This document shows, in pieces, positions 1 to 40,822 of a DNA stretch of 64,000 nt; position 1 is the stretch's first letter; the number at the start of each line of letters is the position of its first letter. Made by a program: the position numbers and the translations under genes. A model generated the notes under the pieces. The model searched no databases. It had not been told where the DNA came from and saw nothing but the letters and a program-made list of their open reading frames with translations. This DNA comes from Trypanosoma brucei (lineage: Eukaryota). Where the stretch lies: positions 3,136,001 through 3,200,000 of the forward strand of contig CH464491.1 of assembly GCA_000002445.1 (NCBI GenBank). Direction: 5' to 3'.

Positions 1-2596
1 CCTCGGATGAAGGCGGCGATGCCTGTTGGGAATTGTCCACCCGCCTCGGAGATTGCGGAAACAAGTGCGCTCAAACCTGCGGATGGCAGGCGCAAATAAA
101 GGACATGCGGTGGGGAGCGGGAGGGGGGTACGACGAGAGGGCACTCAACGGGTTAAGGGATATACCGCCGAAAGAAAAAAAAGTGGATCAACGCACCCTC
201 TCCTCTCCGCCGCAACCATTCCCAAAACCCTCCTTCTCACCTCTGTTGCCGTTCCCGGCCCGAGTGATGCGCACCGGTGTGAAGCCGAAGCCCTACTGCC
301 CTGTGAAGTGCTTTTGAAAGATAACAGGATACGCCCAGTTACGAGGAAGCGAAAGTTTAGGTTGCAACGCCGCATGTGCGACCTTCGACGATTCCCTCCT
401 GCTCTCAGTCGGTTGCGGGCACCTTCCTTCACATAGCCACGTGGCTTTCTCAGTCGTCTTTTTAGCTCAATCAGTCTTCCACATGTATTACCGCAGTGCG
501 GAAGTCAGCGGGTTTCTGCTTACGTTTCCTTCTGCGACCTTCAAGCGCCTCCCCGCACCATGCGGTGGTCTCTAAACTGCATCTTTAATGTGATTTTGGG
601 TGCGTGTCTGGCTCCTCCGAGCCTTCCACATTCCATGTTGGGCTACGGCTTCCCCTTGGTTCTTTCATCTTCGCTAACAACCGCGATCGCCCCATCCACT
701 TTCCGTTCCGTTGCGCAGCATTCGGTAGACAAGCCGTTCCCCATTACCACCGGGAGCCATCTTAGTAACCCCATGAGGTCTCTTAGAAGTGCCTGCAGGC
801 GCCCCGCACCAACACCTAACTCGTTATTCGCTCCGCTTCAAGGTTCCCAAGAGCCGCTCGCATTCCCCGATGCGTTGGGTTTCGGGAGCCACTTAATAGA
901 ACAAAACTGAAGGTGTGCAACCTTCACTGCTACCCTCAGGCAGCCTATCTCAGAACGGCGATACACTATACCGAGGCGAAATTATTCCAGGCTTCTGCTG
1001 CCTAAAATTTAAAAACCCTAACCCAAGGAGCACACACACACATACAGACACATTGCATCAGTCAATAACGTCATTTAAGCATCGTCCGCACCACACTTAA
1101 AATACTGCTTTCAGCACTCAAACATTACTCAAACCACTCCTAACGCAGTTGAAGTGCTAATCTCAGAGTTACCTGGAGTACTCATAAATGGCTTTTCAAA
1201 TCAAATGGAGATCACCACACTAGTAAGGCATACAGGACTCGTTACAGCTCAGTATCTCAACACACAAAGAAGGAGGCAGCACAAAGCCCACCCCAAAACA
1301 GCACACATCACTATCCACAATTGTTCGTGGAGCATTCATTTGTGTTAGCGAGACGAGCACAAGAGGAGCAGTTGGTTTCAATCCTTAGTTTGCCGTTTGC
1401 ATAATACATGGTCGAAAACCAATGCCAATATGATTCCTCCTGTGATCTGTAAAATTAACGACCCAACAAAAATTACTAATGTAGGAGTGGGAGGTTCGGC
1501 AGGGTCACGCAGGAAAACGATCGGTGCCATTAAAGGATGCTACTACCATCCAACTCGGAAGCAAATACACGGCGGCATGCATGTGATCGATAAGGAATCA
1601 AATCAAATACAATAGTGAACCCTAGCGGCATCCAAACTGTTAAGAAGATTGACGCTCCGAAGGTGGGTGAGCCAGGATAAAAACAACCAAACAATTCAGT
1701 GGGACGAGTAAGTGACACAGAGGAACCCAATATGGCCAAGTCACAGAAACTATCAGTGGGTACCACAACAAATCTGCAGAAAAAATTAATGGCGTACACT
1801 TCGCAAAACAACGCTCATCCACCATATCAACTCTCCGGTGACACAGCAGCACCAAACAGGCGCCGAGTCACCTTCCAACCCAGGAGTTACTCAGTGTGAC
1901 ACACGTATATGTTGACTTTCATGCCACCACCAGTAGTACACTCACGCTGCTTCAAACCGTGTACCAGCTAACGGCAGGTATATTCATCCAGCACTATAAA
2001 GGAATTAAGCATCTAAGGATACGCAGGCCCTGCTGATTCTGAAACAGTCCCTAATACAATATTATCCTTACCACTAGAAGTAACTAAATTCATTAACAAT
2101 CATGAGGGATATAAAGATAGCAATCGGTTTCTGGAAAAGCACCGAACCAACAGTAAAGAGAAAGTCAACAACGCAGCCACAAGCGTCGAGTTACCAAGGA
2201 GGGGGGCGGTGGTTGGAAGTATTAACGACACATAACGCGCACAACAACTGCCCAATTAAGACGCTTTGCACCCTAAGATCCCCATCAATTCATTTAACAA
2301 ACAAAGAAAGGGATGAGAGGCGGGACTATCATACAGCCACGCTGCTAAGCCTTCCTACGTTAATGCAGAGTGCGGCGGATGTGACAGCAACCCCCCAAAC
2401 CAACAGAAAAAACTCAAGGAAATTATTCTTTACTTTGTATGTGCGTTCTTCTTTCATACATCATTCGGTAGCACTGCTATAGTCAGGAGAACAGAAGCGG
2501 CTTTATTAAAGAGCAATTGCCATTCCCTTAACAACACATCATCTCCTTTAACCAAACCCCATATCTCCTTCTTTCCGATTCTTGTTCCACTCAACT

Positions 2597-2962
2597 TTAC
2601 ATATCCACAGATGGCTCCTTAGAGGGTTTCTTCCCCCTCGCAGTTAACGAGCCGCTCGGCCTTTGCCTCCGAATGCCGTCCATCTTCTCTTTCATTTCAG
2701 CCATCTGTTCCGCAAGCTTGGTGCGTGCGGCACTCAGCTTCGACAGTTTATCCTTAACTTCATCCTCGGCTTTAATTATATCGGCCTTCTGCTTCTCCAG
2801 GCCCTTCAATCTGAACTGCAGGTCCTTCATATTCTTATCGAACAGATTGTCCTGACTCCTCATGTCACCCATCAGCTCGGTCATTAAGTCCATGTTTTGC
2901 TTCCGGAACTCCGCTTCGCGCCGCGTAATGACGGCTTGCATTTCGATGAGTCTCCGGTCCAT
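2597..2962 (-). CDS. Small coiled-coil protein, 121 aa, K/E/R-rich with heptad character. Copy 1 of 3.
   Basis: ORF conserved 100% at protein level in three repeat copies (7799-8164 minus, 12808-13173 plus). Charged, low-complexity-free sequence typical of a coiled coil. Function unknown. Confidence 0.4.
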   Translation of the reverse strand: MDRRLIEMQAVITRREAEFRKQNMDLMTELMGDMRSQDNLFDKNMKDLQFRLKGLEKQKADIIKAEDEVKDKLSKLSAARTKLAEQMAEMKEKMDGIRRQRPSGSLTARGKKPSKEPSVDM

Positions 2963-3376
2963 GGTTTATTGGGATTCCTTACCGAAGTATCACTTTAAGA
3001 ATATCAGACTGCAGTAGAGGTCTTCACTGCAGTACGTAATAGCTATTCTGAATATATACACAGAACGCTATATTACGTTGTCCAAAAATATTTATATTCT
3101 CCCCGCTGTTTTACCTTTCGTTGTTCTTTCAATACGAGCCTCAGCAAAAAGAAAAAAAATGATTTACAAAAATAGCCTAATACAGGATGCTTTGTCTAGG
3201 TATCGCAAACACTTGAAAAATCTGCAACTAGTAAGGAGGAAGAAGGCACAAATTGGGAGATGGCTGTGACAGTTGTAGTGTCCATAAAATAATTAGCATA
3301 TTACTAGACACGGGAATATGGAGAGAGTACACTTAGCCACACACCAGTAGCGCTACCGGATCTCTGATACACATTT

Positions 3377-3742
3377 TCACAACCGCAACAGCATCTTATC
3401 TTGTTCCTTGTAGAAGATCCCATTGTTCACACTCATTAAGGAAGCATTAAATCGTCTCATACATAATAGAAAGGTGCTGTGGTAAAGAGAGTGGAAATCC
3501 GCCTTATGGAAGTTAAAGAGGGAATCCATAACCCAACCGGTGCACTTCACGGAATAAATTAAAGCGCACGTATCCACGTATGCACATATTGGTAAAGTTA
3601 GCAAATGCAACACAGATGACAGAGGTACCGAACACCAAACAAATATATTATCAAAGTCTTCAATAATCACATGGTGTGGCAAAATCATGAAAGATACACC
3701 GAACAAAGCGGCACGTGTCACGACTAGAGGTGTGAATGGCAA
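3377..3742 (-). CDS. Small hydrophobic protein, 121 aa, about 3 predicted TM segments. Copy 1 of 3.
   Basis: ORF identical in three repeat copies (8579-8944 minus, 12028-12393 plus). Alternating hydrophobic stretches (AALFGVSFMILP, VLHLLTLPICAY, TFLLCM). A KADF motif gives a weak resemblance to DAD1/OST2-like small membrane proteins. This is not verifiable here. Confidence 0.3.
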   Translation of the reverse strand: MPFTPLVVTRAALFGVSFMILPHHVIIEDFDNIFVWCSVPLSSVLHLLTLPICAYVDTCALIYSVKCTGWVMDSLFNFHKADFHSLYHSTFLLCMRRFNASLMSVNNGIFYKEQDKMLLRL

Positions 3743-6399
3743 ACGGCGAACAAAACACAGTCAATCAGACACCAAGCCATACGAGCATCAGGTAACTCCT
3801 AAGCGAGCCCTTCAACAGGAAAGAAGCAAAGTAACATTTTTCATCACTTGAAGGACTCCCTTCCAGTTATTGCAAGGTTAGTAAGCAGATGTCGGTTCCC
3901 TGGCTTGAATGCAAACGATGATGGTGTTGTTTGGAAATAAGCAGTGCCTATCCTTGGATGTTTTACGTTTTTTTCAGCAATTTTTCTGCGATAATGAAAA
4001 ATACCGTTCCCTCGGCTGCTTTGCGCTCCACTCCGCAGGTGACGAATATAGTTTACTAACCATATCCTGATCATCCTCACTTGATATCTTCCATAGCACG
4101 GAAGCTGTCCCGTTCATCTCGTCGGGCGGGGATCTACTTTGTAGTGATTTAATGCCACAACGGTGCACATATGATTCACGGAGCCGAATGTTCTTGTATA
4201 AACCATACGGTTCCCACCACCGTCTTTCTTTCTTTTCTTCGCCCCAGCTTAGTGGCCTAAGCAGCTTTGCCGCAACGCCTACCGTCGATCTCTTGGGTTA
4301 GGGCCCTGATTGTTGCGGCTGAGGTAAATGGTTCGGGTAATCTTTCAACCTGAGAGCAATATTCCATCCCATTAGTTTGCGGGCGGTGCTCTCAAGGGTT
4401 GCTAGCCGGAGCAATATCACATCTGCTGCGGATTTGCTTGCATTCGGGAAGTGGTATTATAATGCCCTTCCCTCCGCTTCTTCGGTGCTACACTGTGTTC
4501 CACACAGTGGCTATACAGTTTCGGTAGGTTTTTTTGTCCCCGCCGAGCTTCTATAATCCCACGCACGCATTTTCCCTGTGGACACCGTTCTCACGGATAA
4601 TCCACTTAACACTAACTTTAATTCCTCCATGGCAAGCAAGATGTGCATATAATTCCCTACCCCAGGCAGCGCCGTCTCCGGAGTCCCTAGAACCTTTGCG
4701 AATTCCCTCCTGCTAATCCCTGCAGTTGCCTTTTCTTTGCTGCTTTTGCACCCGGTGGTACCTGCCATGTACCACCACTGGGGTGCTCCGCAGCGTTGGT
4801 GCATATGCCGCATTTACTAAGCTCTGGGTTCATGACTCAGTGAGATTGTGTACACACCCACTGCTACCGCGCGTTCCCTCCAGTGCAGCATACATGGTGA
4901 CAGTGTCATGGCTGTCACGGGTTATGCCAAATATGTTCACACAAGCGTGTATTTATGGGCACTTTTCTGGTGTTAGTCTAACCGACGCTCTTCTAAACTC
5001 TCCCGTTTGTCCTGGCCAATGCACCACATACGTACAGCCCTCTATCGCCACTGACACCCTTAACTCCTTAAGGTGCCATGCTATTCGAGTGTTCCGGAAA
5101 ACCAGGTATCACTTTGCCTTCTACTCGTTCACCGCCCAGACACAACCCCCGCGTAATGCGAAGTCCACCTTAGTCTTCGTGAATGTACTTTGCCAACGCA
5201 AGTCTTTTCAGCTGGGGGAGGACTAAAGTATTCTACCGCGATCCACGTGAAATAGGATCTGTGGTGTTTTTTTTTCCGATATTACCACGCACGGTATCAG
5301 TGGTAGCAAAGCACATATAATCAAAAAAGCGTGCTTTCACGCCCAGTAGATAATAAAGATATCCCTCGCCACCACCGGAGGGGTTACGGCGTTGCTGTAT
5401 GCCCCCACCGTAGTGAACAATGGCAGTTCGGCGGCGTCAATATCCAAAGACTGAGTGATGCAGAAACTTGGTTTGTCCTACAAGGGTATCCGCACAAGAT
5501 GCATGTGCGACACCCCTACTTGCATGCAGAACAGGTGCCTGTTGTGCAACTTCGAAAGCAAATTAGGTCGTTTCTCCGTAACGCATTAAGCTGGGTGAGG
5601 ACAATCATTTAACATCAGAGGACACTGTAAAGGTGTAAGAAGTCTTAGCGGTCGCGCACAGTCAATGCGACAAACACATTCATGTTGTCCTGTGTTTAGT
5701 GCCACAGCCAGAATAAAGGAGCCTGCAGTAGAAAGTAATAAGCTCCTTTCCGCCCCCACCCCGTTCAGGTAGCAGTTCCGTGTTCCCCCATGGTGGGGTT
5801 CCTGTGGAGGCCAATCAACACTGAAAAATATTGGCAACAAAACGAGACTCAGCGAAGAGTAGGCAAACAAAATAAAAAAAAAGTGCAATTGCTCTGCCTA
5901 ACACACTGTTGTTATAGTATCCCTGAGTCCGGAAGGCGGCGCCCCATGCATCGCGCAACGTCACAAAGTCAACCAAACACAGAGAGCATGCAGATTGATA
6001 TCACACGGAAATGATGAACATTCGTCCGTCAGAGGAGGGGAAATAGCGACGGCACGCGCCACTTATCTCGAGAACACGGTAACAAGCACGGCAGCAAACG
6101 ATACGACCCGCACTTAAATATTTCTTTACTTTTCATTGTCTACATACCAGAAACGCAACACCGCCATATCTCTTAAAATCTGCACACCCTTTCATTTCTG
6201 CGCACTAGTTTATGAAAAAAAAACAAAGAGTCCCCAAGACAAGCTTGATGCCCAGAAACCACAGTTACTAAACGGTACATCACATTCTTCAGTGCTTCCC
6301 CCTACACCAAAAAGTTGGAAAAACAAACAAACATATGCTACATCAACATTACGACACTGCAGAGCTCCAGAGACATGATTCACACATGCAGAAACAATT

Positions 6400-6987
6400 A
6401 AAGACAAAACAACTAAAGGACAGAGATGACATATTTTTGTAATAACAATATGGGCACCAACATTTTTCGGAAGATCAGCTAAGGGTAAAAAAAACATATA
6501 TACACATCAGATCCAACCTACAAAATTCAACAAAAAGGAAAGCACAGCAAAAGATCTAGCAAATATATGTAGTAAAACAGAAACGAAGACACAGCAATTA
6601 TTTATATTATTAAAATTACAAATTCTAAACACATTTTAATAAATCAACAAAGCTCCAAGAATGTCAAAAAAAAAAACACGTAACCCACAACAATAAACAA
6701 AACAGGAAACCGCCACCCACAAAAACTGCAACAGCCAACAAAATAGGATTAAACAAAAAAATGAAAAACCCCTCCGTCACCATAAAAACAAATTAATAAT
6801 ATACTAAGAAGAAAAAGCAACCATCCACCACCGAACACAAAAAAATAAGAATATAATATATAAAAAATAAAAAAATTCTAACAAATTATACGGAAGTGGA
6901 ATCTAAATGTAAATATATACAACACCGACTAAAAATCATAAAAAAACAAGAGCAAAAAATACATGAGCATAATTGACAACAAAAAAA
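6400..6987. repeat. A/C-rich low-complexity tract (poly-A runs, AACA/AAAC-like microsatellites) immediately preceding repeat copy 2.
   Basis: Direct inspection shows about 80% A on the plus strand. A mirror-image T/G-rich tract follows the inverted copy at about 14920-15600. Confidence 0.8.
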
Positions 6988-7798
6988 TTAATGGCGTACA
7001 CTTCGCAAAACAACGCTCATCCACCATATCAACTCTCCGGTGACACAGCAGCACCAAACAGGCGCCGAGTCACCTTCCAACCCAGGAGTTACTCAGTGTG
7101 ACACACGTATATGTTGACTTTCATGCCACCACCAGTAGTACACTCACGCTGCTTCAAACCGTGTACCAGCTAACGGCAGGTATATTCATCCAGCACTATA
7201 AAGGAATTAAGCATCTAAGGATACGCAGGCCCTGCTGATTCTGAAACAGTCCCTAATACAATATTATCCTTACCACTAGAAGTAACTAAATTCATTAACA
7301 ATCATGAGGGATATAAAGATAGCAATCGGTTTCTGGAAAAGCACCGAACCAACAGTAAAGAGAAAGTCAACAACGCAGCCACAAGCGTCGAGTTACCAAG
7401 GAGGGGGGCGGTGGTTGGAAGTATTAACGACACATAACGCGCACAACAACTGCCCAATTAAGACGCTTTGCACCCTAAGATCCCCATCAATTCATTTAAC
7501 AAACAAAGAAAGGGATGAGAGGCGGGACTATCATACAGCCACGCTGCTAAGCCTTCCTACGTTAATGCAGAGTGCGGCGGATGTGACAGCAACCCCCCAA
7601 ACCAACAGAAAAAACTCAAGGAAATTATTCTTTACTTTGTATGTGCGTTCTTCTTTCATACATCATTCGGTAGCACTGCTATAGTCAGGAGAACAGAAGC
7701 GGCTTTATTAAAGAGCAATTGCCATTCCCTTAACAACACATCATCTCCTTTAACCAAACCCCATATCTCCTTCTTTCCGATTCTTGTTCCACTCAACT

Positions 7799-8164
7799 TT
7801 ACATATCCACAGATGGCTCCTTAGAGGGTTTCTTCCCCCTCGCAGTTAACGAGCCGCTCGGCCTTTGCCTCCGAATGCCGTCCATCTTCTCTTTCATTTC
7901 AGCCATCTGTTCCGCAAGCTTGGTGCGTGCGGCACTCAGCTTCGACAGTTTATCCTTAACTTCATCCTCGGCTTTAATTATATCGGCCTTCTGCTTCTCC
8001 AGGCCCTTCAATCTGAACTGCAGGTCCTTCATATTCTTATCGAACAGATTGTCCTGACTCCTCATGTCACCCATCAGCTCGGTCATTAAGTCCATGTTTT
8101 GCTTCCGGAACTCCGCTTCGCGCCGCGTAATGACGGCTTGCATTTCGATGAGTCTCCGGTCCAT
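7799..8164 (-). CDS. Small coiled-coil protein, 121 aa. Copy 2.
   Basis: Identical translation to 2597-2962. Confidence 0.4.
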   Translation of the reverse strand: MDRRLIEMQAVITRREAEFRKQNMDLMTELMGDMRSQDNLFDKNMKDLQFRLKGLEKQKADIIKAEDEVKDKLSKLSAARTKLAEQMAEMKEKMDGIRRQRPSGSLTARGKKPSKEPSVDM

Positions 8165-8578
8165 GGTTTATTGGGATTCCTTACCGAAGTATCACTTTAA
8201 GAATATCAGACTGCAGTAGAGGTCTTCACTGCAGTACGTAATAGCTATTCTGAATATATACACAGAACGCTATATTACGTTGTCCAAAAATATTTATATT
8301 CTCCCCACTGTTTTACCTTTCGTTGTTCTTTCAATACGAGCCTCAGCAAAAAGAAAAAAAATGATTTACAAAAATAGCCTAATACAGGATGCTTTGTCTA
8401 GGTATCGCAAACACTTGAAAAATCTGCAACTAGTAAGGAGGAAGAAGGCACAAATTGGGAGATGGCTGTGACAGTTGTAGTGTCCATAAAATAATTAGCA
8501 TATTACTAGACACGGGAATATGGAGAGAGTACACTTAGCCACACACCAGTAGCGCTACCGGATCTCTGATACACATTT

Positions 8579-8944
8579 TCACAACCGCAACAGCATCTTA
8601 TCTTGTTCCTTGTAGAAGATCCCATTGTTCACACTCATTAAGGAAGCATTAAATCGTCTCATACATAATAGAAAGGTGCTGTGGTAAAGAGAGTGGAAAT
8701 CCGCCTTATGGAAGTTAAAGAGGGAATCCATAACCCAACCGGTGCACTTCACGGAATAAATTAAAGCGCACGTATCCACGTATGCACATATTGGTAAAGT
8801 TAGCAAATGCAACACAGATGACAGAGGTACCGAACACCAAACAAATATATTATCAAAGTCTTCAATAATCACATGGTGTGGCAAAATCATGAAAGATACA
8901 CCGAACAAAGCGGCACGTGTCACGACTAGAGGTGTGAATGGCAA
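8579..8944 (-). CDS. Small multi-TM protein, 121 aa. Copy 2.
   Basis: Identical translation to 3377-3742. Confidence 0.3.
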   Translation of the reverse strand: MPFTPLVVTRAALFGVSFMILPHHVIIEDFDNIFVWCSVPLSSVLHLLTLPICAYVDTCALIYSVKCTGWVMDSLFNFHKADFHSLYHSTFLLCMRRFNASLMSVNNGIFYKEQDKMLLRL

Positions 8945-9102
8945 ACGGCGAACAAAACACAGTCAATCAGACACCAAGCCATACGAGCATCAGGTAACTC
9001 CTAAGCGAGCCCTTCAACAGGAAAGAAGCAAAGTAACATTTTTCATCACTTGAAGGACTCCCTTCCAGTTATTGCAAGGTTAGTAAGCAGGTGTCGGTTC
9101 CT

Positions 9103-9670
9103 TGGCCCAATAGATAATCTTCCTTATTGATGCTCACATTCAATACGCCGAAAGAAATGGTACGGTGCGATTACCACCTCGGAAAAAAGCTCCACCCATG
9201 TAATGGATCCCCAATATAAGGGGCGTGCAACCTGGAAAGAAGGGCAAAAATAAAAAAGAGCCATCGCGGTTACACCTCGCCTTTACGCACTGTATGTGAT
9301 GTTCATGCCAAGCACACCCGTACTCCGCTACGTCCTCGCTGGCTCTGGAATCCCGCTGCCATGGAGGGGTGCCCACTCATGGTGGGGATGAAGACGCGTG
9401 GCGCCTGCCGCGCTGGGCAGGGGGGCGGGGGAAAGCGGAGGGAGGCCAGGCGACGTTTTTAACCGCCTGTGCGTCTCAGATTATCACCCCATATAGCACT
9501 GACCTACCCAGATTGGGAATTGCGAGCTCATTACCACTTCGTAAAAGATGGAACGACCAACACACGGCAACCAGCACATCGGCCCACGCACCCCTCCCTT
9601 CTCCACCAGGGGAGAAGCAAGAGTAGTGAATGCGACACCGCCTTGGGCATCTCACTGCGTTACCGCGGCC
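9103..9670. repeat. Inner palindrome arm B (left). G+C-rich, non-coding in appearance.
   Basis: Reverse-complement of 11297-11868. Symmetry axis near 10486 (for example ORF 9140-9376 minus equals 11596-11832 plus). Contains GGGGGGCGGGGG. Confidence 0.85.
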
Positions 9671-11296
9671 CTACATCAACCGGATGCCCGAGTGAAATAG
9701 GATGGCCGCACTAAATAATATACTAGCAACCGCGGACCTGGCTTCTGGTAGACCCGTTGTTTTTATTGGCGATATAATTTTTTTTGTTTAAGCTTGTTAC
9801 ACCACTTTTTGTAGTTTGCTGAATAGGTATCTCCTTATATCTCTTGTCATCGGTATTAGATAACGGTAAAGGTGCTGAGCTGAATGTGGAGGTTTTACCT
9901 TTTTTCATTGGAAGCTGACCTATTATGTGCGTTAGGGTCTTAAGGCATTAAATGTTGCTATGAGCAGAGGGGTATATTGCCTTCAGCGCGTGTGTGTCTT
10001 CTCTGGGTGTGCGGTGCTTCCTTCCCAGAGAGGCACACCGTTCGCGACCAAAGGTCTGTTTAAAACCGTTGCTTCAGGTGTGCCGGCGGCCCTTCAACAT
10101 GATTGTTCTCGAACACTGTTTTGTTTAGCTGACTATGTGGACTTAAGGTAGGGAAAATACACTACCTTATTTAAACATTTTAGCACAAAAAATAAATCAG
10201 CAATTGCGGGGGATTTTACAAGTAACCTTTTGTTTCAACTGAAATCAGGAATACAAGGGTCGAATCTTCAGCGGAAATGGTGGCCTACCAAGTTAAGGAT
10301 ACAAAACTGACGGAGCACAAAACCACATCTGGACTCATGCGTAGACCGCGCCACTGTAGTGCCGAGTCATGTGTCAGAGTGAGAGGCGCCTTTGACAACA
10401 CGACTGGACAACTACTCGATTTCCCGTTTCAATATGCGCCACTCCGCCTAAGCATATTCTGCGCTCACTTTCAGGTGAAACGACCTCCAGAAGAGGAAAA
10501 GGTAAAATTAAAGCAGCAGAGCAACAACATGAGCAACCGTGAAAACAATAGATGCAAGTAACAGCATTCTGTAACAGAGGGCGCGTGTTCTGCGCGAAGT
10601 GCGTGTTAAGGGCTGGTGAAAGCCGCCGCCACTCAAAGAAAATTGGTTACTTAGCCCCGCCAAATCCCTGTATTTTAGTTTGGCCGCGCCCTTGTTGCTC
10701 CAGCCGCACGGCGTACACGCGTATTAGCATAGAATTCTCAACCATTCTTCCCGTATAATCTTAAACCTCTTCGGGGGAGCGTAATTGACTAACGCCACGC
10801 CTGAACGTATCTAAGGGCCTTCTGGAAATAATTTTTGCCTTGCAACGGATCTAGTGCGCTCCCCACTATGAGTTGATACCGTTGCCTTTCCGCCCCACTT
10901 TAATCCTCGTAGAATAAGATGAAGCCGCTCGGCTTTCGCTATCCGAGTAGGGTGCCGGAGCCTGGTAGCACGTTTGGGTGGCCCGCATCGCCAGGAGAAA
11001 CGAAATTATATCATTTCCCGCGATACACACCAAAACTTAACAAATACACCAGAGGCTAACTATTTCTTTACATTAGGCACTTCCTGCCAAAACAGCTGAT
11101 CGACACCGTCTCAACAAATGTAAGGCGTGGCTGTGAGCCTTCCTGGGGTCAGGAGGCGGCGGCGATGCAAGTGCCGGTTGGCGCCGGGGTGCCTGAATCG
11201 TTTGGGACTGTGGCCAGCACCCTTCGTATAAAACGCTTGCGAGTCGCCGGCCCCTCACGATTTGAGCATTACGTGCTTGTTGGCATTGAGGTTACA
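9671..11296. other. Unique 1.6-kb spacer at the centre of the palindrome. Putative divergent strand-switch or transcription-initiation region.
   Basis: Sequence between the two inverted arms has no counterpart elsewhere in the window. Genes on the left arm are minus and genes on the right arm are plus, so they diverge from here. Confidence 0.5.
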
Positions 11297-12027
11297 GTGC
11301 TGGCCGCGGTAACGCAGTGAGATGCCCAAGGCGGTGTCGCATTCACTACTCTTGCTTCTCCCCTGGTGGAGAAGGGAGGGGTGCGTGGGCCGATGTGCTG
11401 GTTGCCGTGTGTTGGTCGTTCCATCTTTTACGAAGTGGTAATGAGCTCGCAATTCCCAATCTGGGTAGGTCAGTGCTATATGGGGTGATAATCTGAGACG
11501 CACAGGCGGTTAAAAACGTCGCCTGGCCTCCCTCCGCTTTCCCCCGCCCCCCTGCCCAGCGCGGCAGGCGCCACGCGTCTTCATCCCCACCATGAGTGGG
11601 CACCCCTCCATGGCAGCGGGATTCCAGAGCCAGCGAGGACGTAGCGGAGTACGGGTGTGCTTGGCATGAACATCACATACAGTGCGTAAAGGCGAGGTGT
11701 AACCGCGATGGCTCTTTTTTATTTTTGCCCTTCTTTCCAGGTTGCACGCCCCTTATATTGGGGATCCATTACATGGGTGGAGCTTTTTTCCGAGGTGGTA
11801 ATCGCACCGTACCATTTCTTTCGGCGTATTGAATGTGAGCATCAATAAGGAAGATTATCTATTGGGCCAAGGAACCGACATCTGCTTACTAACCTTGCAA
11901 TAACTGGAAGGGAGTCCTTCAAGTGATGAAAAATGTTACTTTGCTTCTTTCCTGTTGAAGGGCTCGCTTAGGAGTTACCTGATGCTCGTATGGCTTGGTG
12001 TCTGATTGACTGTGTTTTGTTCGCCGT

Positions 12028-12393
12028 TTGCCATTCACACCTCTAGTCGTGACACGTGCCGCTTTGTTCGGTGTATCTTTCATGATTTTGCCACACCATG
12101 TGATTATTGAAGACTTTGATAATATATTTGTTTGGTGTTCGGTACCTCTGTCATCTGTGTTGCATTTGCTAACTTTACCAATATGTGCATACGTGGATAC
12201 GTGCGCTTTAATTTATTCCGTGAAGTGCACCGGTTGGGTTATGGATTCCCTCTTTAACTTCCATAAGGCGGATTTCCACTCTCTTTACCACAGCACCTTT
12301 CTATTATGTATGAGACGATTTAATGCTTCCTTAATGAGTGTGAACAATGGGATCTTCTACAAGGAACAAGATAAGATGCTGTTGCGGTTGTGA
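12028..12393 (+). CDS. Small multi-TM protein, 121 aa. Copy 3 (inverted).
   Basis: Identical translation to 3377-3742. Confidence 0.3.
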   Translation: MPFTPLVVTRAALFGVSFMILPHHVIIEDFDNIFVWCSVPLSSVLHLLTLPICAYVDTCALIYSVKCTGWVMDSLFNFHKADFHSLYHSTFLLCMRRFNASLMSVNNGIFYKEQDKMLLRL

Positions 12394-12807
12394 AAATGTG
12401 TATCAGAGATCCGGTAGCGCTACTGGTGTGTGGCTAAGTGTACTCTCTCCATATTCCCGTGTCCAGTAATATGCTAATTATTTTATGGACACTACAACTG
12501 TCACAGCCATCTCCCAATTTGTGCCTTCTTCCTCCTTACTAGTTGCAGATTTTTCAAGTGTTTGCGATACCTAGACAAAGCATCCTGTATTAGGCTATTT
12601 TTGTAAATCATTTTTTTTCTTTTTGCTGAGGCTCGTATTGAAAGAACAACGAAAGGTAAAACAGAGGGGAGAATATAAATATTTTTGGACAACGTAATAT
12701 AGCGTTCTGTGTATATATTCAGAATAGCTATTACGTACTGCAGTGAAGACCTCTACTGCAGTCTGATATTCTTAAAGTGATACTTCGGTAAGGAATCCCA
12801 ATAAACC

Positions 12808-13173
12808 ATGGACCGGAGACTCATCGAAATGCAAGCCGTCATTACGCGGCGCGAAGCGGAGTTCCGGAAGCAAAACATGGACTTAATGACCGAGCTGATG
12901 GGTGACATGAGGAGTCAGGACAATCTGTTCGATAAGAATATGAAGGACCTGCAGTTCAGATTGAAGGGCCTGGAGAAGCAGAAGGCCGATATAATTAAAG
13001 CCGAGGATGAAGTTAAGGATAAACTGTCGAAGCTGAGTGCCGCACGCACCAAGCTTGCGGAACAGATGGCTGAAATGAAAGAGAAGATGGACGGCATTCG
13101 GAGGCAAAGGCCGAGCGGCTCGTTAACTGCGAGGGGGAAGAAACCCTCTAAGGAGCCATCTGTGGATATGTAA
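12808..13173 (+). CDS. Small coiled-coil protein, 121 aa. Copy 3 (inverted).
   Basis: Identical translation to 2597-2962. Confidence 0.4.
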   Translation: MDRRLIEMQAVITRREAEFRKQNMDLMTELMGDMRSQDNLFDKNMKDLQFRLKGLEKQKADIIKAEDEVKDKLSKLSAARTKLAEQMAEMKEKMDGIRRQRPSGSLTARGKKPSKEPSVDM

Positions 13174-13177
13174 AGTT

Positions 13178-13400
13178 GAGTGGAACAAGAATCGGAAAGA
13201 AGGAGATATGGGGTTTGGTAAAGGAGATGATGGTGTAAGGAATGNNNNNNNNNNNNNNNNNNNNNNNNNNNNNNNNNNNNNNNNNNNNNNNNNNNNNNNN
13301 NNNNNNNNNNNNNNNNNNNNNNNNNNNNNNNNNNNNNNNNNNNNGGAAGAAGAGATTGGGGTTTGGTTAAAGGAGATGATGTGTTGTTAAGGGAATGGCA
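13178..13400. repeat. Tandem repeat of an about 50-bp unit (ggaaRgaaggagatWtggggtttggt(t)aaaggagatgatg(g)tgtKtaagg(g)aatg). At least 2 copies spanning the N gap.
   Basis: One unit ends at 13244 and a second starts at 13345, with 100 N between them. Copy 1 and copy 2 have a single unit at the equivalent site (about 2526-2580). Confidence 0.7.
13245..13344. other. Assembly gap (100 N). Also a single ambiguous base at 13628.
   Basis: Run of exactly 100 n characters. Confidence 1.
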
Positions 13401-16400
13401 ATTGCTCTTTAATAAAGCCGCTTCTGTTCTCCTGACTATAGCAGTGCTACCGAATGATGTATGAAAGAAGAACGCACATACAAAGTAAAGAATAATTTCC
13501 TTGAGTTTTTTCTGTTGGTTTGGGGGGTTGCTGTCACATCCGCCGCACTCTGCATTAACGTAGGAAGGCTTAGCAGCGTGGCTGTATGATAGTCCCGCCT
13601 CTCATCCCTTTCTTTGTTTGTTAAATGANATTGATGGGGATCTTAGGGTGCAAAGCGTCTTAATTGGGCAGTTGTTGTGCGCGTTATGTGTCGTTAATAC
13701 TTCCAACCACCGCCCCCCTCCTTGGTAACTCGACGCTTGTGGCTGCGTTGTTGACTTTCTCTTTACTGTTGGTTCGGTGCTTTTCCAGAAACCGATTGCT
13801 ATCTTTATATCCCTCATGATTGTTAATGAATTTAGTTACTTCTAGTGGTAAGGATAATATTGTATTAGGGACTGTTTCAGAATCAGCAGGGCCTGCGTAT
13901 CCTTAGATGCTTAATTCCTTTATAGTGCTGGATGAAATATACCTGCCGTTAGCTGGTACACGGTTTGAAGCAGCGTGAGTGTACTACTGGTGGTGGCATG
14001 AAAGTCAACATATACGTGTGTCACACTGAGTAACTCCTGGGTTGGAAGGTGACTCGGCGCCTGTTTGGTGCTGCTGTGTCACCGGAGAGTTGATATGGTG
14101 GATGAGCGTTGTTTTGCGAAGTGTACGCCATTAATTTTTTCTGCAGATTTGTTGTGGTACCCACTGATAGTTTCTGTGACTTGGCCATATTGGGTTCCTC
14201 TGTGTCACTTACTCGTCCCACTGAATTGTTTGGTTGTTTTTATCCTGGCTCACCCACCTTCGGAGCGTCAATCTTCTTAACAGTTTGGATGCCGCTAGGG
14301 TTCACTATTGTATTTGATTTGATTCCTTATCGATCACATGCATGCCGCCGTGTATTTGCTTCCGAGTTGGATGGTAGTAGCATCCTTTAATGGCACCGAT
14401 CGTTTTCCTGCGTGACCCTGCCGAACCTCCCACTCCTACATTAGTAATTTTTGTTGGGTCGTTAATTTTACAGATCACAGGAGGAATCATATTGGCATTG
14501 GTTTTCGACCATGTATTATGCAAACGGCAAACTAAGGATTGAAACCAACTGCTCCTCTTGTGCTCGTCTCGCTAACACAAATGAATGCTCCACGAACAAT
14601 TGTGGATAGTGATGTGTGCTGTTTTGGGGTGGGCTTTGTGCTGCCTCCTTCTTTGTGTGTTGAGATACTGAGCTGTAACGAGTCCTGTATGCCTTACTAG
14701 TGTGGTGATCTCCATTTGATTTGAAAAGCCATTTATGAGTACTCCAGGTAACTCTGAGATTAGCACTTCAACTGCGTTAGGAGTGGTTTGAGTAATGTTT
14801 GAGTGCTGAAAGCAGTATTTTAAGTGTGGTGCGGACGATGCTTAAATGACGTTATTGACTGATGCAATGTGTCTGTATGTGTGTGTGTGCTCCTTGGGTT
14901 AGGGGTTTTAAAGTTAATCTTAGCTTTTTTTGTTCTTCCAGTTGAATGTTGTTGTTTATGTTTTTCGTGGATATAGTGTTGTTTTAAAGCGTAAGGAATT
15001 TTTTGACGATATATTTCTATTTATTATTTTAAATCTGTTGTTGGTGAATGTAGATTTTGTTTTGTTGACTTAATTTGTCTTCTTTTTTGTTTCTTTGTTC
15101 TTTTTTTTTTTTTGTGTGGTGCCTTGTAATTCTTCTTTTTTTATCTTGGTGATTTTGCATGATAATGCTTTGTGTGTGAATATTTGTTTACCGATTAGCT
15201 CATTAATGGTCATATGTGACTTATAAGTTCGTTTATTTGTGGCAGATTGTGTTATTTTTATATGGCTTTAGTTCATCTTGCTGCAGCGGTTTTTATTAGA
15301 TTAATTTTTCGATACCTGTTTGTTGACGTTAAAGTGTGTTGGTGAGTGATGGCCTCTTATCTTGGCGTGTTGCGACGCATAGTTCCATTATTACTTAGTT
15401 GTGTATAAGTGACTGCTCATCTTTTGCTAGTGGTTAATCATTGCGGATGGGGTTAAGCGAATCACGTATAATTAAAATTGAAAAATTGGTGGGAGCAGTT
15501 ACTGCACGGTGTTGCATCGTTGTTTGGTGTGTGTGTGTGGTGTTGCTGCCGTAACATGCAGCAAAAATCTCGGTACTGAATGCCTTTGTTTTGCATGCTA
15601 CAGTGCTTTGGCAACGAAATTCACCGCCTCCGTAACTTCGATGTACGGGGTGCTTGTGATTTGTTGCTAGTGCCTGTGTTTGAAGAGTGAAAGATATTTT
15701 CTATACCTAAAAGAAGTTGACATGAAAGGGTCTTGGCAAATGAATGGTGGCTCAATGAAACATAAAAAAGAGAGGGGTCTTTAAAAAAAAAAAAAAAGAA
15801 CGCGCCTCTACGGTTCGCCAATATTAGTAAATGCCTTTAACTCTTCGCGTTGTATTCAGCTCGTGTTGGAGGCGTGCAAGCGTATCCTTGGTGTTGTTTA
15901 ATTCATATGTGCTCTGTGGAAGTGATGGCCTCCTAAATGTGGTACCAGAGACGGCAGTACTGCTCACATGGAGAACTGTGTTGTGTTTTGGTTGAGGTAT
16001 GTGGTGCAGCACAAGGATGAGTCGCTCTGTGCCGAGGCGCCGCTTTTCTACCTTGTCGGTGCGTGGCCGCGTGCAAATGGGCTGTCAGCACTATCCCTCC
16101 CAATGAAATTGTTATCGGTGCGAGATGGGATGTCCCTGGAGCCATGTGATGGATCCTTGAAAGCAGTCTGTAGAGCTGATTAGTTGGAAACCAAGTAGAT
16201 GAAGTCAAGTGTTTGGCGCATTCATCTTCGGTTAGCGGTATGCATCGAAACAACTTTTTTTCGTGAAGCGGAGGTCGTGGGGCTAAAGGGTAGCCAACCT
16301 CCACATCCCTGTTCATGTTGCTTTGTATGGCGCGTCCACCGAAAAGGCAAATGGCTGAAGGTAATCATATACGGAAATAGAGCAACACACTCTTTGACAG

Positions 16401-17690
16401 AAGGTGTTCGGCACTACTCTCCGAGCAGCAGGGGCACATGGTTCGTACAGGTTCGGGTGACGCAACTGACGGCTGAAAGTATAGCGACAGGCACTACATT
16501 CTGTTCTCCACCTGAACACTTTGGGCGAGCAGATGTTTCCCCGGACATTTTCACTTCTTGTGGCAGAGAGGTTGAATCGTTTGCATACCGTCTGCAAAAT
16601 GACATCTACCCCGGCATTGGCGTTTGTTTTGCAACCCACGGTGGGACATGCATGGCATGTCACCAACTTCTGAGAACGAGGCTCCTGATCATTCAGAATA
16701 CCTTCTGGGAATGAGAATGCACGACATATTATCCAGGAGGAAATCAAGAGCGGGTATCTTCGTGTTGTCCAAGCGGTCGGATCAAGGGTTGGCATGCTAT
16801 TTCGCCGCGATGCCACGCACACTGAATGCGAACAGGGCTTGTGACCTTGTTGTCTGTAATCTGATCACCTTTCCGTCATCGAGACTGCCTTGTCACCGGG
16901 CCTGCAAGGTTACTGAAGGGAGGAGGGTTTGGATTCTCAACGAGGCATGAGCAGGCTTTTCCTGATTGAAAATAGCCAGCGGCGATGATAAATTCTGATT
17001 TCCTAGGCATCCACCCTTTGATCCATCACGTTCCGGAGCGTCTGGTCCGGATGAAGGTTTGACCATTCAATTTCTTCCGTTATTCTTGTTTTGCTCATGG
17101 CAGAAGTTTTGCCGCGCGGTGTTTCCATTTTTTTTTTTCTTTTGCATTCCAGCTCCCGTCAAGTCAGTTTTACCTGACTCCAGTTTCCACCAACCCTCGC
17201 ACTACCTTTCGGCGGAGTAACCCTATGATCGGTGTTGTGCGCGTGCCCATAGCAGGGCGATGCAATGAGCGCCTCCTCGCTCGGCCATCGAAGGAGGTCC
17301 CTAAAAGTTATCAAGAAGAAAAGAAAGCACCGAATGGTAGCGTTTTGCTGTACCACGTTTTTAAGATGACATAGTTCGGTAGCAAAATTTGTGACGAAAA
17401 TGAACACACACACACACACGTATATATATATATACTCTCAAGCTAAGGTAGTTTGAGACTTGCTTTGGTTAGGCCGTTTTTTGTGCTGTCGGGAGACTTT
17501 TCCCCCCTGGAAACCTTTCCCTGTTAAGCGCCGGTGAGGGTGGTTACAGCCACAGCGCCGCGTGTGACAAGCATGATGATTAAGCACCCCTCGGAAGAAA
17601 CCCTTTATCCCTTGATGTAGGAAAATCCACTCGGCACGTGTTCGCCTTCGAGTTTTTGCCAGCTTAGACCATTCTAAGGTTTGGCTTTCT

Positions 17691-18680
17691 TCATCTGCGT
17701 GGGCCAGTTTTGAGACACCGCTGATTCCATTCCAAGAAGCGCCGTTCGCACCGCGTTGTGCAAATGGTTACTTTTTTGCTGGCGGTAAGTGGCACCTCGG
17801 GGAGAAACTGCCGGTATAAAGAAAGGCTTAGGTTGGCCAGCGTAAGTGAGCCTAGTTCCACGCTAGCTTCCATCAGTAGTTCAGCAGCTACAGACCCGCG
17901 TTTTTCGTAGCTTCCGGGTAGAGACAGTCCGCAGTCTGCTCCGCCTCCTGTGATGCAGTCTTCCATAACAAAAGTTGCTTGTGAAGAAGCTATATCTCCC
18001 ATAGCCAAACAAAGCCCCAAACCGCGCAGGAAAGGCACCCAGTTCTCGTTGCTCACCCCCTTCGCACGGCATTTCTGCACGACGGAACGGTCATCCCCGT
18101 CGTACTCGCCAAGAAGGTCCACAAGCAGCCTTAGCAGAACGTCCGACCGCTCCTCTCCAAAAAACAACTTGAACTTTTCCGGATGTCGCATGACACTTAT
18201 GGGATGAACGAAAAATTGTGATGGTTTGACGTTTGGGGCGATGGCACCGTGCAACACCGCTCTTTCAAAGATTAAGCGACTCTCAAACAGGCAGTAGGCG
18301 TAAACGTGGGGGTGATACGGCAGTGAAATCAGCCTTACTGCTTCGGTTGTGGAGTAACCACAGGGCGGTGCTGTGTCAGAAGAAAATGGCAGGTGCATAG
18401 ACAAGAGGTCATTATCCTCAGAAGCACTCGATGCCTTTTTCCGTTCGGCACCGAATGTCCTTTCAACCCATGACCCTCGGTTGCACTTCTGTGTGAACTG
18501 ACAAAGCGGGCGACAAACTTTCATTAAATACTTTACCTTACTTTGTTGTAAAAGCAGCTGGGGGTGGGTGGTTGAGGTGCTCGACATGTGGTATTTGAAG
18601 GAAGGGGAAACATGGGTAGGGTTGAGAGTGCTCCCAACAGTGGCTGCGCCGGCTTTGAGACTAATCGGTGACAGTGGCAA
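17691..18680 (-). CDS. Hypothetical protein (up to 329 aa; true start may be an internal Met). No recognisable domain.
   Basis: Longest ORF in the region. Non-repetitive, mixed composition. Sits just left of the divergent strand-switch region. Confidence 0.4.
   Translation of the reverse strand: MPLSPISLKAGAATVGSTLNPTHVSPSFKYHMSSTSTTHPQLLLQQSKVKYLMKVCRPLCQFTQKCNRGSWVERTFGAERKKASSASEDNDLLSMHLPFSSDTAPPCGYSTTEAVRLISLPYHPHVYAYCLFESRLIFERAVLHGAIAPNVKPSQFFVHPISVMRHPEKFKLFFGEERSDVLLRLLVDLLGEYDGDDRSVVQKCRAKGVSNENWVPFLRGLGLCLAMGDIASSQATFVMEDCITGGGADCGLSLPGSYEKRGSVAAELLMEASVELGSLTLANLSLSLYRQFLPEVPLTASKKVTICTTRCERRFLEWNQRCLKTGPRR

Positions 18681-40771: not shown

Positions 40772-40822
<51 letters not shown>

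What the first reader, a model, noticed from the sequence alone, without database searches (positions are those of the whole stretch)
1012..14915. Triplicated mini-gene unit arranged as direct repeat plus near-perfect palindrome around a 1.6-kb spacer
A roughly 2.9-kb unit carries a 121-aa coiled-coil ORF and a 121-aa multi-TM ORF. It is present twice in direct orientation (1012-3899, 6988-9102) and once inverted (11869-14915). The second direct copy plus a G-rich arm B (9103-9670) is mirrored by B-prime plus copy 3 (11297-14915) about an axis near 10486. The small genes therefore diverge from the unique spacer (9671-11296), like a duplicated divergent strand-switch locus. The copies are nearly base-identical, which suggests recent duplication or gene conversion. 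One polypyrimidine-tract site carries three different bases in the three copies (g at 3105, a at 8307, t at the equivalent inverted position). That site changes one codon (A/T/S) of a 63-aa K/R-rich antisense ORF. The G-rich arm B contains GGGGGGCGGGGG and could be the actual initiation region. A large palindrome with identical arms could also be a long-read foldback assembly artefact. The unique 1.6-kb spacer and the copy-specific substitutions argue against that.
Basis: seen in the sequence. Interest (0 to 1): 0.7.

Follow-up and report, generated by a model that had tools for sequence, protein, structure and literature searches.

The report
Palindromic three-copy CAP15 gene locus
This is the known trypanosome cytoskeleton gene CAP15, present as three identical copies (two in a row, one flipped) around a small transcription start region on Trypanosoma brucei chromosome 11; the structure is real and kept uniform by gene conversion, but it is an ordinary kind of locus for this parasite.

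Summary
The repeat is real. A 3.46-kb unit (segments a+b+c) occurs as copy 1 (a+b, 1005-3904, minus), copy 2 (b+c, 6982-9670, minus) and an inverted full copy 3 (11302-14915, plus). Copies 2 and 3 form a palindrome around a unique 1631-bp spacer.

The window is T. brucei TREU927 chromosome 11 (GeneDB v4 3,136,001-3,200,000). The 121-aa coiled-coil ORF is the known microtubule-associated protein CAP15 (Tb11.01.3805). RNA-seq contigs show it is trans-spliced.

The "multi-TM" ORF and the 63-aa antisense ORF are not genes.

The palindrome is still not an artefact: a gap-free PacBio assembly (T. b. equiperdum) and the T. b. gambiense assembly both carry it.

Copies within a strain are more alike than the same copy between strains, which indicates gene conversion. 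In gambiense the spacer is flipped.

A published genome-wide start-site table lists CAP15 as a one-gene, divergent-type Pol II unit.

Best explanation: a self-contained CAP15 island transcribed outward from the spacer and bounded by convergent zones on both sides.

Interest is low to moderate.

The parts
1005..3904 (-). Repeat copy 1 (segments a+b); carries CAP15 gene copy 1
   Evidence: 3 mismatches to copy 2 over segment b. 100% identical to T. equiperdum OVI copy 1 over b.
2597..2962 (-). CAP15 CDS, copy 1 (121 aa)
   Evidence: [quoted passage not shown] AlphaFold2 predicts a single helix over residues 3-100 with pLDDT above 90, plus a basic tail.
2215..3227 (-). CAP15 mRNA body, copy 1: splice acceptor AG at 3229-3228, 265-nt 5'UTR, CDS, about 382-nt 3'UTR to the major poly(A) site
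   Evidence: RNA-seq contig L001 begins with 27 nt of the spliced leader joined at this point. The poly(A) site is taken from Kolev Table S13 (3149704 = window 13704 = position 2215 in copy 1).
3905..6981 (.). Unique 3077-bp segment X between the two direct copies. It holds only the dubious ORF Tb11.01.3800 (4894-5226, +).
   Evidence: No similarity elsewhere in the window. Tb11.01.3800 is listed as giving no detectable transcript (Kolev Table S2).
6982..9670 (-). Repeat copy 2 (segments b+c); left arm of the palindrome
7799..8164 (-). CAP15 CDS, copy 2
9107..9670 (.). Segment c (GC-rich, 55% GC, contains G6CG5); mirrored at 11302-11865; absent from copy 1
9671..11301 (.). Unique 1631-bp spacer at the palindrome centre. 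Inferred bidirectional Pol II start region. Inverted relative to the flanks in T. b. gambiense DAL972.
   Evidence: Unique. No tRNA or Rfam hit. Minimum of cumulative GC skew. Kolev Table S14 types the unit as 'Divergent'. Orientation compared across assemblies.
11302..14915 (+). Repeat copy 3 (inverted c+b+a); right arm of the palindrome; contains the annotated gene Tb11.01.3805
   Evidence: Colinear and gap-free in IVM-t1.
12808..13173 (+). CAP15 CDS, copy 3 (= Tb11.01.3805)
   Evidence: Coordinates tie to GeneDB v4 through.
13245..13344 (.). 100-N assembly gap in the 3'UTR of copy 3, with low-quality contig ends and about 50 nt duplicated across it (13209-13356 in all); a single N at 13629
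   Evidence: IVM-t1 reads straight through.
3105..3105 (-). Tri-allelic site in the CAP15 5'UTR (sense C; copy 2 at 8307 = T; copy 3 at 12665 = A)
   Evidence: In IVM-t1 all three copies have A. In DAL972, OVI and all seven RNA-seq contigs the base is C.
14916..17690 (.). Unique right flank. It has + sense (GT-rich) composition to about 16.5 kb, then a convergent zone. The ORF Tb11.01.3810 is dubious.
   Evidence: Kolev Table S2.
17691..18587 (-). Tb11.01.3820, a conserved hypothetical gene (298 aa here, 372 aa in other strains), converging on copy 3
   Evidence: 100% identical to EAN80150.1. Homologues in T. congolense and T. cruzi.
19255..19266 (+). G12 run in the short divergent region between Tb11.01.3820/3830 (-) and the long + gene cluster that starts at 19687
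   Evidence: Wedel et al. 2017 report G/T stretches on the coding strand at start regions.

Best explanation
The region is the CAP15 locus of Trypanosoma brucei TREU927 chromosome 11. One complete expression module is present three times with identical coding sequence. The module comprises an upstream region with a polypyrimidine tract and splice acceptor, a 366-nt CDS, a 3'UTR of about 380 nt, and a GT-rich downstream stretch.

Copies 2 and 3 are the arms of a 2.7-kb palindrome around a 1.6-kb unique spacer. Copy 1 lies 3.1 kb downstream of copy 2 in the same orientation.

Shown here:
- The structure is real and shared by three T. brucei subspecies.
- The gene is CAP15 and its mRNA is trans-spliced.
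- The copies evolve in concert.
- No other ORF in the unit is a gene.

From the literature: the annotated copy (copy 3) is listed as a one-gene Pol II unit with a divergent-type start in the paper's table of putative Pol II start sites and units.

Inferred:
- RNA polymerase II starts bidirectionally in the spacer and c arms. It transcribes copy 3 rightward, and copy 2, then X, then copy 1 leftward.
- Both short units end in convergent zones: one against the + cluster Tb11.01.3260-3790 on the left, the other against Tb11.01.3820 on the right.
- The locus is therefore a self-contained three-gene CAP15 island. Trypanosomes lack gene-specific transcriptional control, so its likely benefit is threefold gene dosage.
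- Because transcription runs outward, the arms yield only sense mRNA, not hairpin RNA.
- Arm-to-arm and direct-repeat gene conversion keeps the copies identical. Recombination between the arms can flip the spacer.
For: Identity of the window:
- BILBO1 N-terminal residues 1-120 are 100% identical to the T. brucei PDB entry 6sjq.
- The 298-aa protein is 100% identical to EAN80150.1, a form found only in TREU927.
- Four GeneDB v4 gene coordinates fit the window with one constant offset of 3,136,000.

Gene:
- The ORF is an exact match to CAP15, Q382Y3.
- CAP15 = Tb11.01.3805 and is higher in bloodstream forms (PMC2443814).
- CAP15 stabilises microtubules (PMC4152294).
- Spliced-leader junction and canonical polyY-AG acceptor.
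- 6.5 mRNAs per cell and a mapped poly(A) site (Kolev Tables S6 and S13).
- The T. congolense homologue is 66% identical.

Reality of the structure:
- IVM-t1 is colinear and gap-free over 20 kb. Its arms show 0 mismatches over 2689 bp.
- DAL972 has copy 3, spacer and copy 2.
- OVI contigs end at the repeat edges.

Concerted evolution:
- DAL972 copies 2 and 3 differ at 1 site from each other but at 9-13 sites from the TREU927 and IVM-t1 copies.
- IVM-t1 copy 2 equals copy 3.

Topology:
- Kolev Table S14.
- Left-flank genes lie on the opposite strand to copies 1 and 2.
- The cumulative GC-skew minimum falls at 9-10.5 kb. Plus-sense composition continues past the repeat edge into unique sequence up to about 16.5 kb.
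Against: - The start-site evidence is one line of a published table. I could not see the underlying reads. Reads in the arms multi-map, and only copy 3 was annotated in v4.
- There is no direct evidence that each copy is expressed. The RNA-seq contigs come from other strains and carry only the C allele.
- The V-shaped skew at the centre follows automatically from any inverted duplication.
- The reference has a gap in copy 3, and the spacer orientation differs between assemblies. Fine structure in TREU927 is therefore not fully certain.
- A dosage benefit is inferred, not shown.
Confidence: 0.75

Rival explanations
1. Hairpin or dsRNA source. Transcription enters the palindrome from a flank, either by read-through from Tb11.01.3820 or from the left + cluster. 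One RNA would then carry antisense and sense CAP15, fold into a 2.7-kb hairpin and be diced into siRNAs that dampen CAP15, as at the seven long inverted repeats described in T. brucei.
For: Tschudi et al. 2012 (PMC3447711) found that all 7 long inverted repeats they catalogued (422-10,011 bp, at least 99% identical) give AGO1-bound small RNAs. The spacers give them too. This locus has the same anatomy and is flanked by convergent units on both sides. CAP15 is lower in procyclic forms.
Against: This locus lies at 3.137-3.151 Mb in v4. It is not in their list: the only chromosome 11 entry, IR7, is at 4.219-4.231 Mb. It is not in their list of convergent units either. The published unit map has transcription leaving the spacer, not entering it. 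Tb11.01.3810-3830 gave no detectable transcript in procyclics.
Confidence: 0.12
2. Neutral recent segmental duplication. The structure is real, but the extra copies, or at least the inverted one, add nothing. Only the copies that sit in a transcribed context are expressed, and gene conversion preserves the rest passively.
For: Gene conversion alone can keep an unused copy intact. No copy-resolved expression data are available. The RNA contigs carry a single allele.
Against: The three-copy layout is shared by brucei, equiperdum and, at least for copies 2 and 3, gambiense. The only copy annotated and quantified in the published map is the inverted one. All copies keep identical splice and poly(A) signals.
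Confidence: 0.1
3. Assembly artefact: a foldback or chimeric join, or a collapsed or expanded repeat, in the reference.
For: The only gap in 64 kb (100 N) sits inside copy 3. The contig ends beside it are error-ridden and duplicate about 50 nt across it. Spacer orientation disagrees between TREU927/IVM-t1 and DAL972.
Against: The same order, spacing (5200 and 5009 bp versus 5202 and 5009 bp) and arms occur in a gap-free PacBio assembly of another strain and in DAL972. There are strain-specific substitutions shared by the arms within each strain. Two OVI contigs stop at the repeat edges, as expected for a true repeat.
Confidence: 0.03

Closest known systems
CAP15 (corset-associated protein 15, Tb11.01.3805) of T. 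brucei, the partner of CAP17 (Vedrenne et al. 2002, Mol Biol Cell 13:1058)
   Same: The 121-aa ORF is the identical protein. It is a small helical microtubule-associated protein that is higher in bloodstream forms.
   Different: Nothing differs in the protein. The papers I could read do not describe a three-copy palindromic layout of the gene. The original paper was not available to me.
Long inverted repeats IR1-IR7 of T. brucei that yield siRNAs (Tschudi et al. 2012, PMC3447711)
   Same: Kilobase-scale arms at least 99% identical, separated by a short spacer, in the same genome. Those authors also remark on the near-perfect arm identity.
   Different: This repeat is not among the seven. Its arms carry a functional protein-coding gene. 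It appears to be transcribed outward from the spacer, which would not give hairpin RNA. Small-RNA output is untested.
Single-gene, divergent-type Pol II transcription units in T. brucei (Kolev et al. 2010, Table S14, PMC2936537)
   Same: Tb11.01.3805 is itself one of about sixteen such one-gene units in the part of the table I read.
   Different: The table was built on an annotation with only one CAP15 copy. The minus-strand partner unit (copies 2 and 1) is therefore missing from it.
Multicopy gene arrays of trypanosomatids with concerted evolution (from general knowledge: tubulin and similar arrays, where copy number stands in for promoter strength)
   Same: Identical copies, homogenisation within a strain, and likely a dosage role.
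   Different: Only three copies, and one is inverted. Classical arrays are head-to-tail within one polycistron.
Gene-bearing palindromes maintained by arm-to-arm gene conversion (from general knowledge: human Y-chromosome palindromes), and flip-flop inversion between inverted repeats (from general knowledge: chloroplast IR, yeast 2-micron plasmid)
   Same: Near-identical arms despite divergence between lineages. The spacer is found in both orientations among assemblies.
   Different: Much smaller scale. The flip is seen only between assemblies and could be an assembly choice. No site-specific recombinase is implied.

Membership tests
CAP15 (T. brucei corset-associated protein 15) | Protein sequence identical or near-identical to Tb11.01.3805 / Q382Y3 | tested here: met
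   All three ORFs are 100% identical to the 121-aa entry named CAP15 / microtubule-associated protein.
CAP15 (T. brucei corset-associated protein 15) | Expressed as a mature trans-spliced mRNA | tested here: met
   RNA-seq contig with a spliced-leader junction at a polyY-AG acceptor. 6.5 RNAs per cell in Kolev Table S6.
CAP15 (T. brucei corset-associated protein 15) | Binds and stabilises subpellicular microtubules | not testable with these tools
   Known from the literature only. The model shows one long helix plus a basic tail.
Divergent strand-switch / Pol II transcription start region | Genes on opposite strands pointing away from a gene-free centre | tested here: met
   Copy 2 (-) and copy 3 (+) flank the spacer. 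Their first exon bases are 4.1 kb apart.
Divergent strand-switch / Pol II transcription start region | Experimental start-site marks (5'-triphosphate RNA ends, H2A.Z, H4K10ac) | tested here: inconclusive
   The table lists Tb11.01.3805 as a one-gene 'Divergent' unit. The read-level data were not seen, and the arms multi-map.
Divergent strand-switch / Pol II transcription start region | G/T-rich coding strand on each side (Wedel et al. 2017) | tested here: inconclusive
   The skew changes sign at the spacer and is strongly GT-rich downstream of each gene. The spacer and c arms themselves are nearly unskewed. A mirror-image skew is automatic in a palindrome.
T. brucei siRNA-producing long inverted repeats (Tschudi et al. 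2012) | Arms of at least about 400 bp, at least 99% identical, in inverted orientation | tested here: met
   Before the gap the arms run for 1.92-1.95 kb by the different alignment settings, with 3 mismatches. The true arm is 2689 bp.
T. brucei siRNA-producing long inverted repeats (Tschudi et al. 2012) | Listed among IR1-IR7, or yields AGO1-bound 22-25-nt RNAs | tested here: not met
   The locus is at v4 3.137-3.151 Mb. IR7 is at 4.219-4.231 Mb, and no listed convergent unit covers the locus. Actual small-RNA output is not testable here.
Foldback / chimeric assembly artefact | Structure absent from independent assemblies | tested here: not met
   Present in IVM-t1 (PacBio, gap-free) and DAL972.
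Repeat family under concerted evolution | Paralogues within a genome more similar than orthologues between genomes | tested here: met
   DAL972 copy 2 versus copy 3: 1 mismatch. DAL972 versus TREU927 or IVM-t1 copies: 9-13 mismatches over 1590 nt.

The most novel reading that the evidence does not exclude
The 4.1 kb between the two outward-facing CAP15 splice sites (the 1.6-kb spacer plus two mirrored arm segments of about 1.24 kb each) would be a complete, natural, unusually compact bidirectional Pol II promoter. It would drive nothing but three copies of one stage-regulated gene and be insulated by termination zones on both sides. Gene conversion would hold the promoter-proximal arms identical, and the spacer would flip freely. 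That would make it a minimal native test bed for what defines Pol II initiation and termination in trypanosomes. The tri-allelic 5'UTR site in TREU927 would serve as a built-in barcode for the output of each copy.
Probability: 0.2. Interest if true: 0.55.

Novelty: new member of a known kind. Interest (0 to 1): 0.3.

Why it matters
There are four modest consequences.

1. The reference annotation used in several transcriptome papers carried one CAP15 gene where there are three. Read counts, knock-outs, tagging and RNAi designs for CAP15 need to take this into account.
2. The reference still has a 100-N gap in the 3'UTR of the annotated copy. This inflates its published 3'UTR length (531 nt against about 382 nt).
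3. The locus is an eighth long inverted repeat. The published catalogue of siRNA-producing repeats does not list it. Checking it for small RNAs would test whether outward transcription protects a palindrome from RNAi.
4. It is a compact, naturally isolated Pol II unit. That could be useful for dissecting initiation and termination in an organism where promoters are poorly defined.

Tried and rejected
- Tschudi's IR7 as this locus. This was tempting: it is the only inverted repeat listed on chromosome 11, 1,814 bp long with 3 mismatches. I rejected it once the Kolev supplement fixed the window at v4 3,136,001-3,200,000. No BLAST setting reproduced a 1,814-bp arm.
- My first topology, in which copies 1 and 2 belonged to a long minus cluster running left. 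This was wrong. Loci L008 and L009 are reversed, so the left-flank genes are on the + strand and converge on copy 1.
- T. cruzi synteny. The 103-aa gene next to the Tb11.01.3820 orthologue is not CAP15-like, and tblastn finds no CAP15 there.
- Wider CAP15 family. Both the word-indexed search and an exhaustive phmmer search found only the T. brucei and T. congolense proteins. CAP17 was not recovered. Pfam and PDB sequence searches gave only sub-threshold coiled-coil noise.
- RNA genes. There are no tRNA or Rfam hits anywhere in the window.
- X, the spacer and the flanks have no similarity to each other or to the rest of the window. I found no sign of a retroelement, but I ran no dedicated search for one.
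- The original CAP15 paper and Siegel et al. 2009 could not be read.
- Tb927.11.11990, described in Ouna et al. 2012 as the 'last ORF before a convergent stop', may lie in this locus. I could not map the new gene IDs, so this is left open.
- The supplements of Reynolds et al. 2016 hold nothing on these genes.

Full report
**Observation**

A repeat unit occurs at 1005-3904 and 6982-9670 in one orientation and at 11302-14915 in the other. A unique 1631-bp spacer (9671-11301) separates the second and third copies. A unique 3077-bp segment X (3905-6981) separates the first and second.

The unit is composite: a = 1005-1779, b = 1780-3904, c = 9107-9670. Copy 1 is a+b, copy 2 is b+c, and only the inverted copy 3 is the full a+b+c. 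Differences between copies are three or four substitutions per pair. The site with three different bases (3105, 8307, 12665) is real.

The sequence at the contig ends beside the gap is error-ridden, and about 50 nt are duplicated across it. The apparent 148-nt insertion in copy 3 is therefore an artefact, and the true unit is 3464 bp.

**Where the window comes from**

All of the following point to T. brucei brucei TREU927 chromosome 11.
- The BILBO1 N-terminal domain at 46045 is 100% identical to the T. brucei protein in PDB 6sjq.
- The 298-aa protein at 17691-18587 is 100% identical to EAN80150.1. Only TREU927 has this form.
- Four GeneDB v4 gene coordinates in the supplement of Kolev et al. 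2010 (Tb11.01.3800, 3810, 3820, 3830) fit ORFs of the window with one constant offset.

The window is therefore Tb927_11_01_v4 3,136,001-3,200,000.

**What the unit encodes**

The 121-aa coiled-coil ORF is, residue for residue, CAP15 (Tb11.01.3805, Q382Y3). CAP15 is a small microtubule-associated protein of the subpellicular corset. It is higher in bloodstream forms (PMC2443814; PMC4152294). AlphaFold2 gives one long helix (residues 3-100, pLDDT above 90) and a basic tail. Its only detectable relative outside T. brucei is a 148-aa T. congolense protein, 66% identical.

Seven RNA-seq contigs from public runs cover the gene. One starts with 27 nt of the spliced leader joined behind a canonical polypyrimidine-AG acceptor. 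The AG is at 3229-3228, and the equivalent exon starts are 8429 and 12543. The 5'UTR is 265 nt.

The published major poly(A) site (v4 3149704 = window 13704) corresponds to 2215 in copy 1. This gives a 3'UTR of about 382 nt. The published figure of 531 nt is inflated by the gap.

**ORFs that are not genes**

- The 121-aa 'multi-TM' ORF starts with TTG and lies in the pyrimidine-rich region upstream of the splice acceptor. It is annotated in no strain. In T. b. gambiense it carries an in-frame stop plus two missense changes, while the CAP15 CDS there has no change at all.
- The 63-aa K/R-rich ORF also starts with TTG and runs antisense across the splice acceptor. The tri-allelic site is simply a 5'UTR polymorphism.
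- The ORF at 2102-2482 is antisense to the 3'UTR.

**Real or artefact**

The PacBio assembly of T. b. equiperdum IVM-t1 (CM010682.1, 2.237-2.247 Mb) has three annotated CAP15 genes with spacings of 5200 and 5009 bp. The window has 5202 and 5009 bp. IVM-t1 is colinear with the window over 20 kb, has no N, and reads straight through the gap. Its arms show 0 mismatches over 2689 bp.

T. b. gambiense DAL972 has copy 3, spacer and copy 2. Two T. equiperdum OVI contigs end within about 35 nt of the repeat edges, as a short-read assembler does at a true repeat. An artefact is excluded for practical purposes.

**Evolution of the copies**

Over 1590 aligned nt of segment b, DAL972 copies 2 and 3 differ at one site from each other. 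They differ at 9-13 sites from every TREU927 and IVM-t1 copy. IVM-t1 copies 2 and 3 are identical. The layout is shared, so the duplication predates the split. The copies have therefore been homogenised by gene conversion.

The tri-allelic site fits this pattern: C, T, A in TREU927; A, A, A in IVM-t1; C, C in DAL972.

In DAL972 the spacer is inverted relative to the unique right flank. In TREU927 and IVM-t1 it has the other orientation. This is either a true inversion by recombination between the arms or an orientation that Sanger data could not resolve.

**Transcription topology**

I first misread the left flank. The loci fetched around copies 1 and 2 are reversed. The neighbouring genes (321 aa, COX15, and so on) lie on the + strand and converge on copy 1. 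This agrees with Kolev's unit Tb11.01.3260-3790 (+).

On the right, Tb11.01.3820 (-) converges on copy 3. It is conserved in T. congolense and T. cruzi. A short divergent region with a G12 run (19255-19266) separates it from the long + cluster that starts at 19687.

The CAP15 copies thus form an island between two convergent zones.

Kolev et al. summarise their putative Pol II start sites and transcription units in Table S14. The sites were mapped with a 5'-triphosphate-enriched library, and the authors report agreement with histone marks. The table lists 'Tb11.01.3805 - Tb11.01.3805, +, Divergent', that is, a one-gene unit with a divergent-type start. Their Table S2 lists Tb11.01.3800, 3810, 3820 and 3830 as giving no detectable transcript in procyclics.

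Composition agrees. Cumulative GC skew has its minimum at 9-10.5 kb. The + sense (G over C, T over A) signature continues beyond the repeat edge into unique sequence up to about 16.5 kb. Such a signature on the coding strand is what Wedel et al. 2017 describe. The mirror-image skew within the arms proves nothing by itself. The c arm is GC-rich but not G-rich.

**Mechanism**

The best-supported reading is as follows. Pol II starts bidirectionally in the spacer and c arms. It transcribes copy 3 to the right, and copy 2, X and copy 1 to the left. Both short units then terminate against incoming clusters.

All three genes then give the same sense mRNA. In an organism that lacks gene-specific transcriptional control, this amounts to threefold dosage. 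Stage regulation is presumably left to the shared 3'UTR.

The shown steps are the structure, the gene identity, trans-splicing, and concerted evolution. From the literature come a start site at the annotated copy, the abundance, and the poly(A) site. Inferred are initiation for the minus-strand pair, expression of every copy, and a dosage benefit.

**Hairpin rival**

T. brucei has seven catalogued long inverted repeats, and all yield AGO1-bound small RNAs (Tschudi et al. 2012). Their chromosome 11 entry IR7 (1,814 bp, 3 mismatches) looked like this locus. It lies at 4.219-4.231 Mb, whereas this locus is at 3.137-3.151 Mb in the same coordinate system. No listed convergent unit covers the locus either.

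This is therefore an eighth long inverted repeat, absent from that catalogue. Outward transcription would explain why it might not make hairpin RNA. Its small-RNA output remains untested.

**Verdict**

The gene, its expression and its start site are already in the literature. What seems undescribed in the papers I could read:
- the three-copy palindromic layout,
- its homogenisation,
- the spacer flip in gambiense,
- the gap-inflated 3'UTR length.

It is a new member of known kinds: multicopy trypanosome genes, gene-bearing palindromes and one-gene Pol II units. Interest is low to moderate.

Noticed in passing
window 13245-13344 and 13629: The reference carries a 100-N gap and a stray N inside the 3'UTR of the annotated CAP15 copy, with about 50 nt duplicated across the gap. 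The published 3'UTR length for Tb11.01.3805 (531 nt) is therefore about 149 nt too long.
   Followed up: yes
window 36400-46000: A gene-free stretch of about 9.5 kb at 31% GC lies between an RRM-protein gene (35629-36351) and BILBO1 (46045), inside a + gene cluster. It has many (TA)n, poly-T and poly-A tracts but no satellite array. Its only annotated ORFs (Tb11.v4.0002 and Tb11.v4.0003) are listed as giving no transcript.
   Followed up: partly
L013 17384-18962 (T. b. gambiense DAL972) versus window 9671-11301: The palindrome spacer is inverted relative to the flanks in DAL972 and lacks about 60 bp (window 11149-11207). This is either a real inversion polymorphism or an assembly orientation choice.
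   Followed up: partly
window 17691-19239: The conserved gene Tb11.01.3820 is 298 aa in TREU927 but 372 aa in DAL972 and in RNA-seq contigs, and it is split into 277 + 235 aa in IVM-t1. The TREU927 'gene' Tb11.01.3830 (165 aa) overlaps the missing N-terminal part in another frame. This suggests a frameshift in a homopolymer run or a sequencing error.
   Followed up: partly
window 19255-19266: A G12 run on the + strand lies in the roughly 1-kb divergent region just upstream of the long + gene cluster. It is the only G or C run longer than 6 in the first 21 kb.
   Followed up: no
window 6000-7500 (- strand) and 14000-16000 (+ strand): Strongly GT-rich sense-strand stretches (GC skew up to 0.28, AT skew up to 0.41 in magnitude) follow CAP15 copies 2 and 3. 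They extend beyond the repeat into unique DNA. Their meaning is unknown (termination zone or downstream promoter-like element).
   Followed up: no
L015 (RNA-seq contig, ERR7929162) = window 20353-17676: One assembled transcript contig runs uninterrupted across the divergent region between Tb11.01.3820 and Tb11.01.3840. This implies RNA coverage of the whole strand-switch region in that data set. It is only 97.5% identical to TREU927.
   Followed up: no
window 3150-3170 (CAP15 5'UTR): The poly-T tract in the 5'UTR is interrupted by a C in TREU927 (tttttttcttttt) but is a pure T run of variable length in the RNA-seq contigs from other strains.
   Followed up: no
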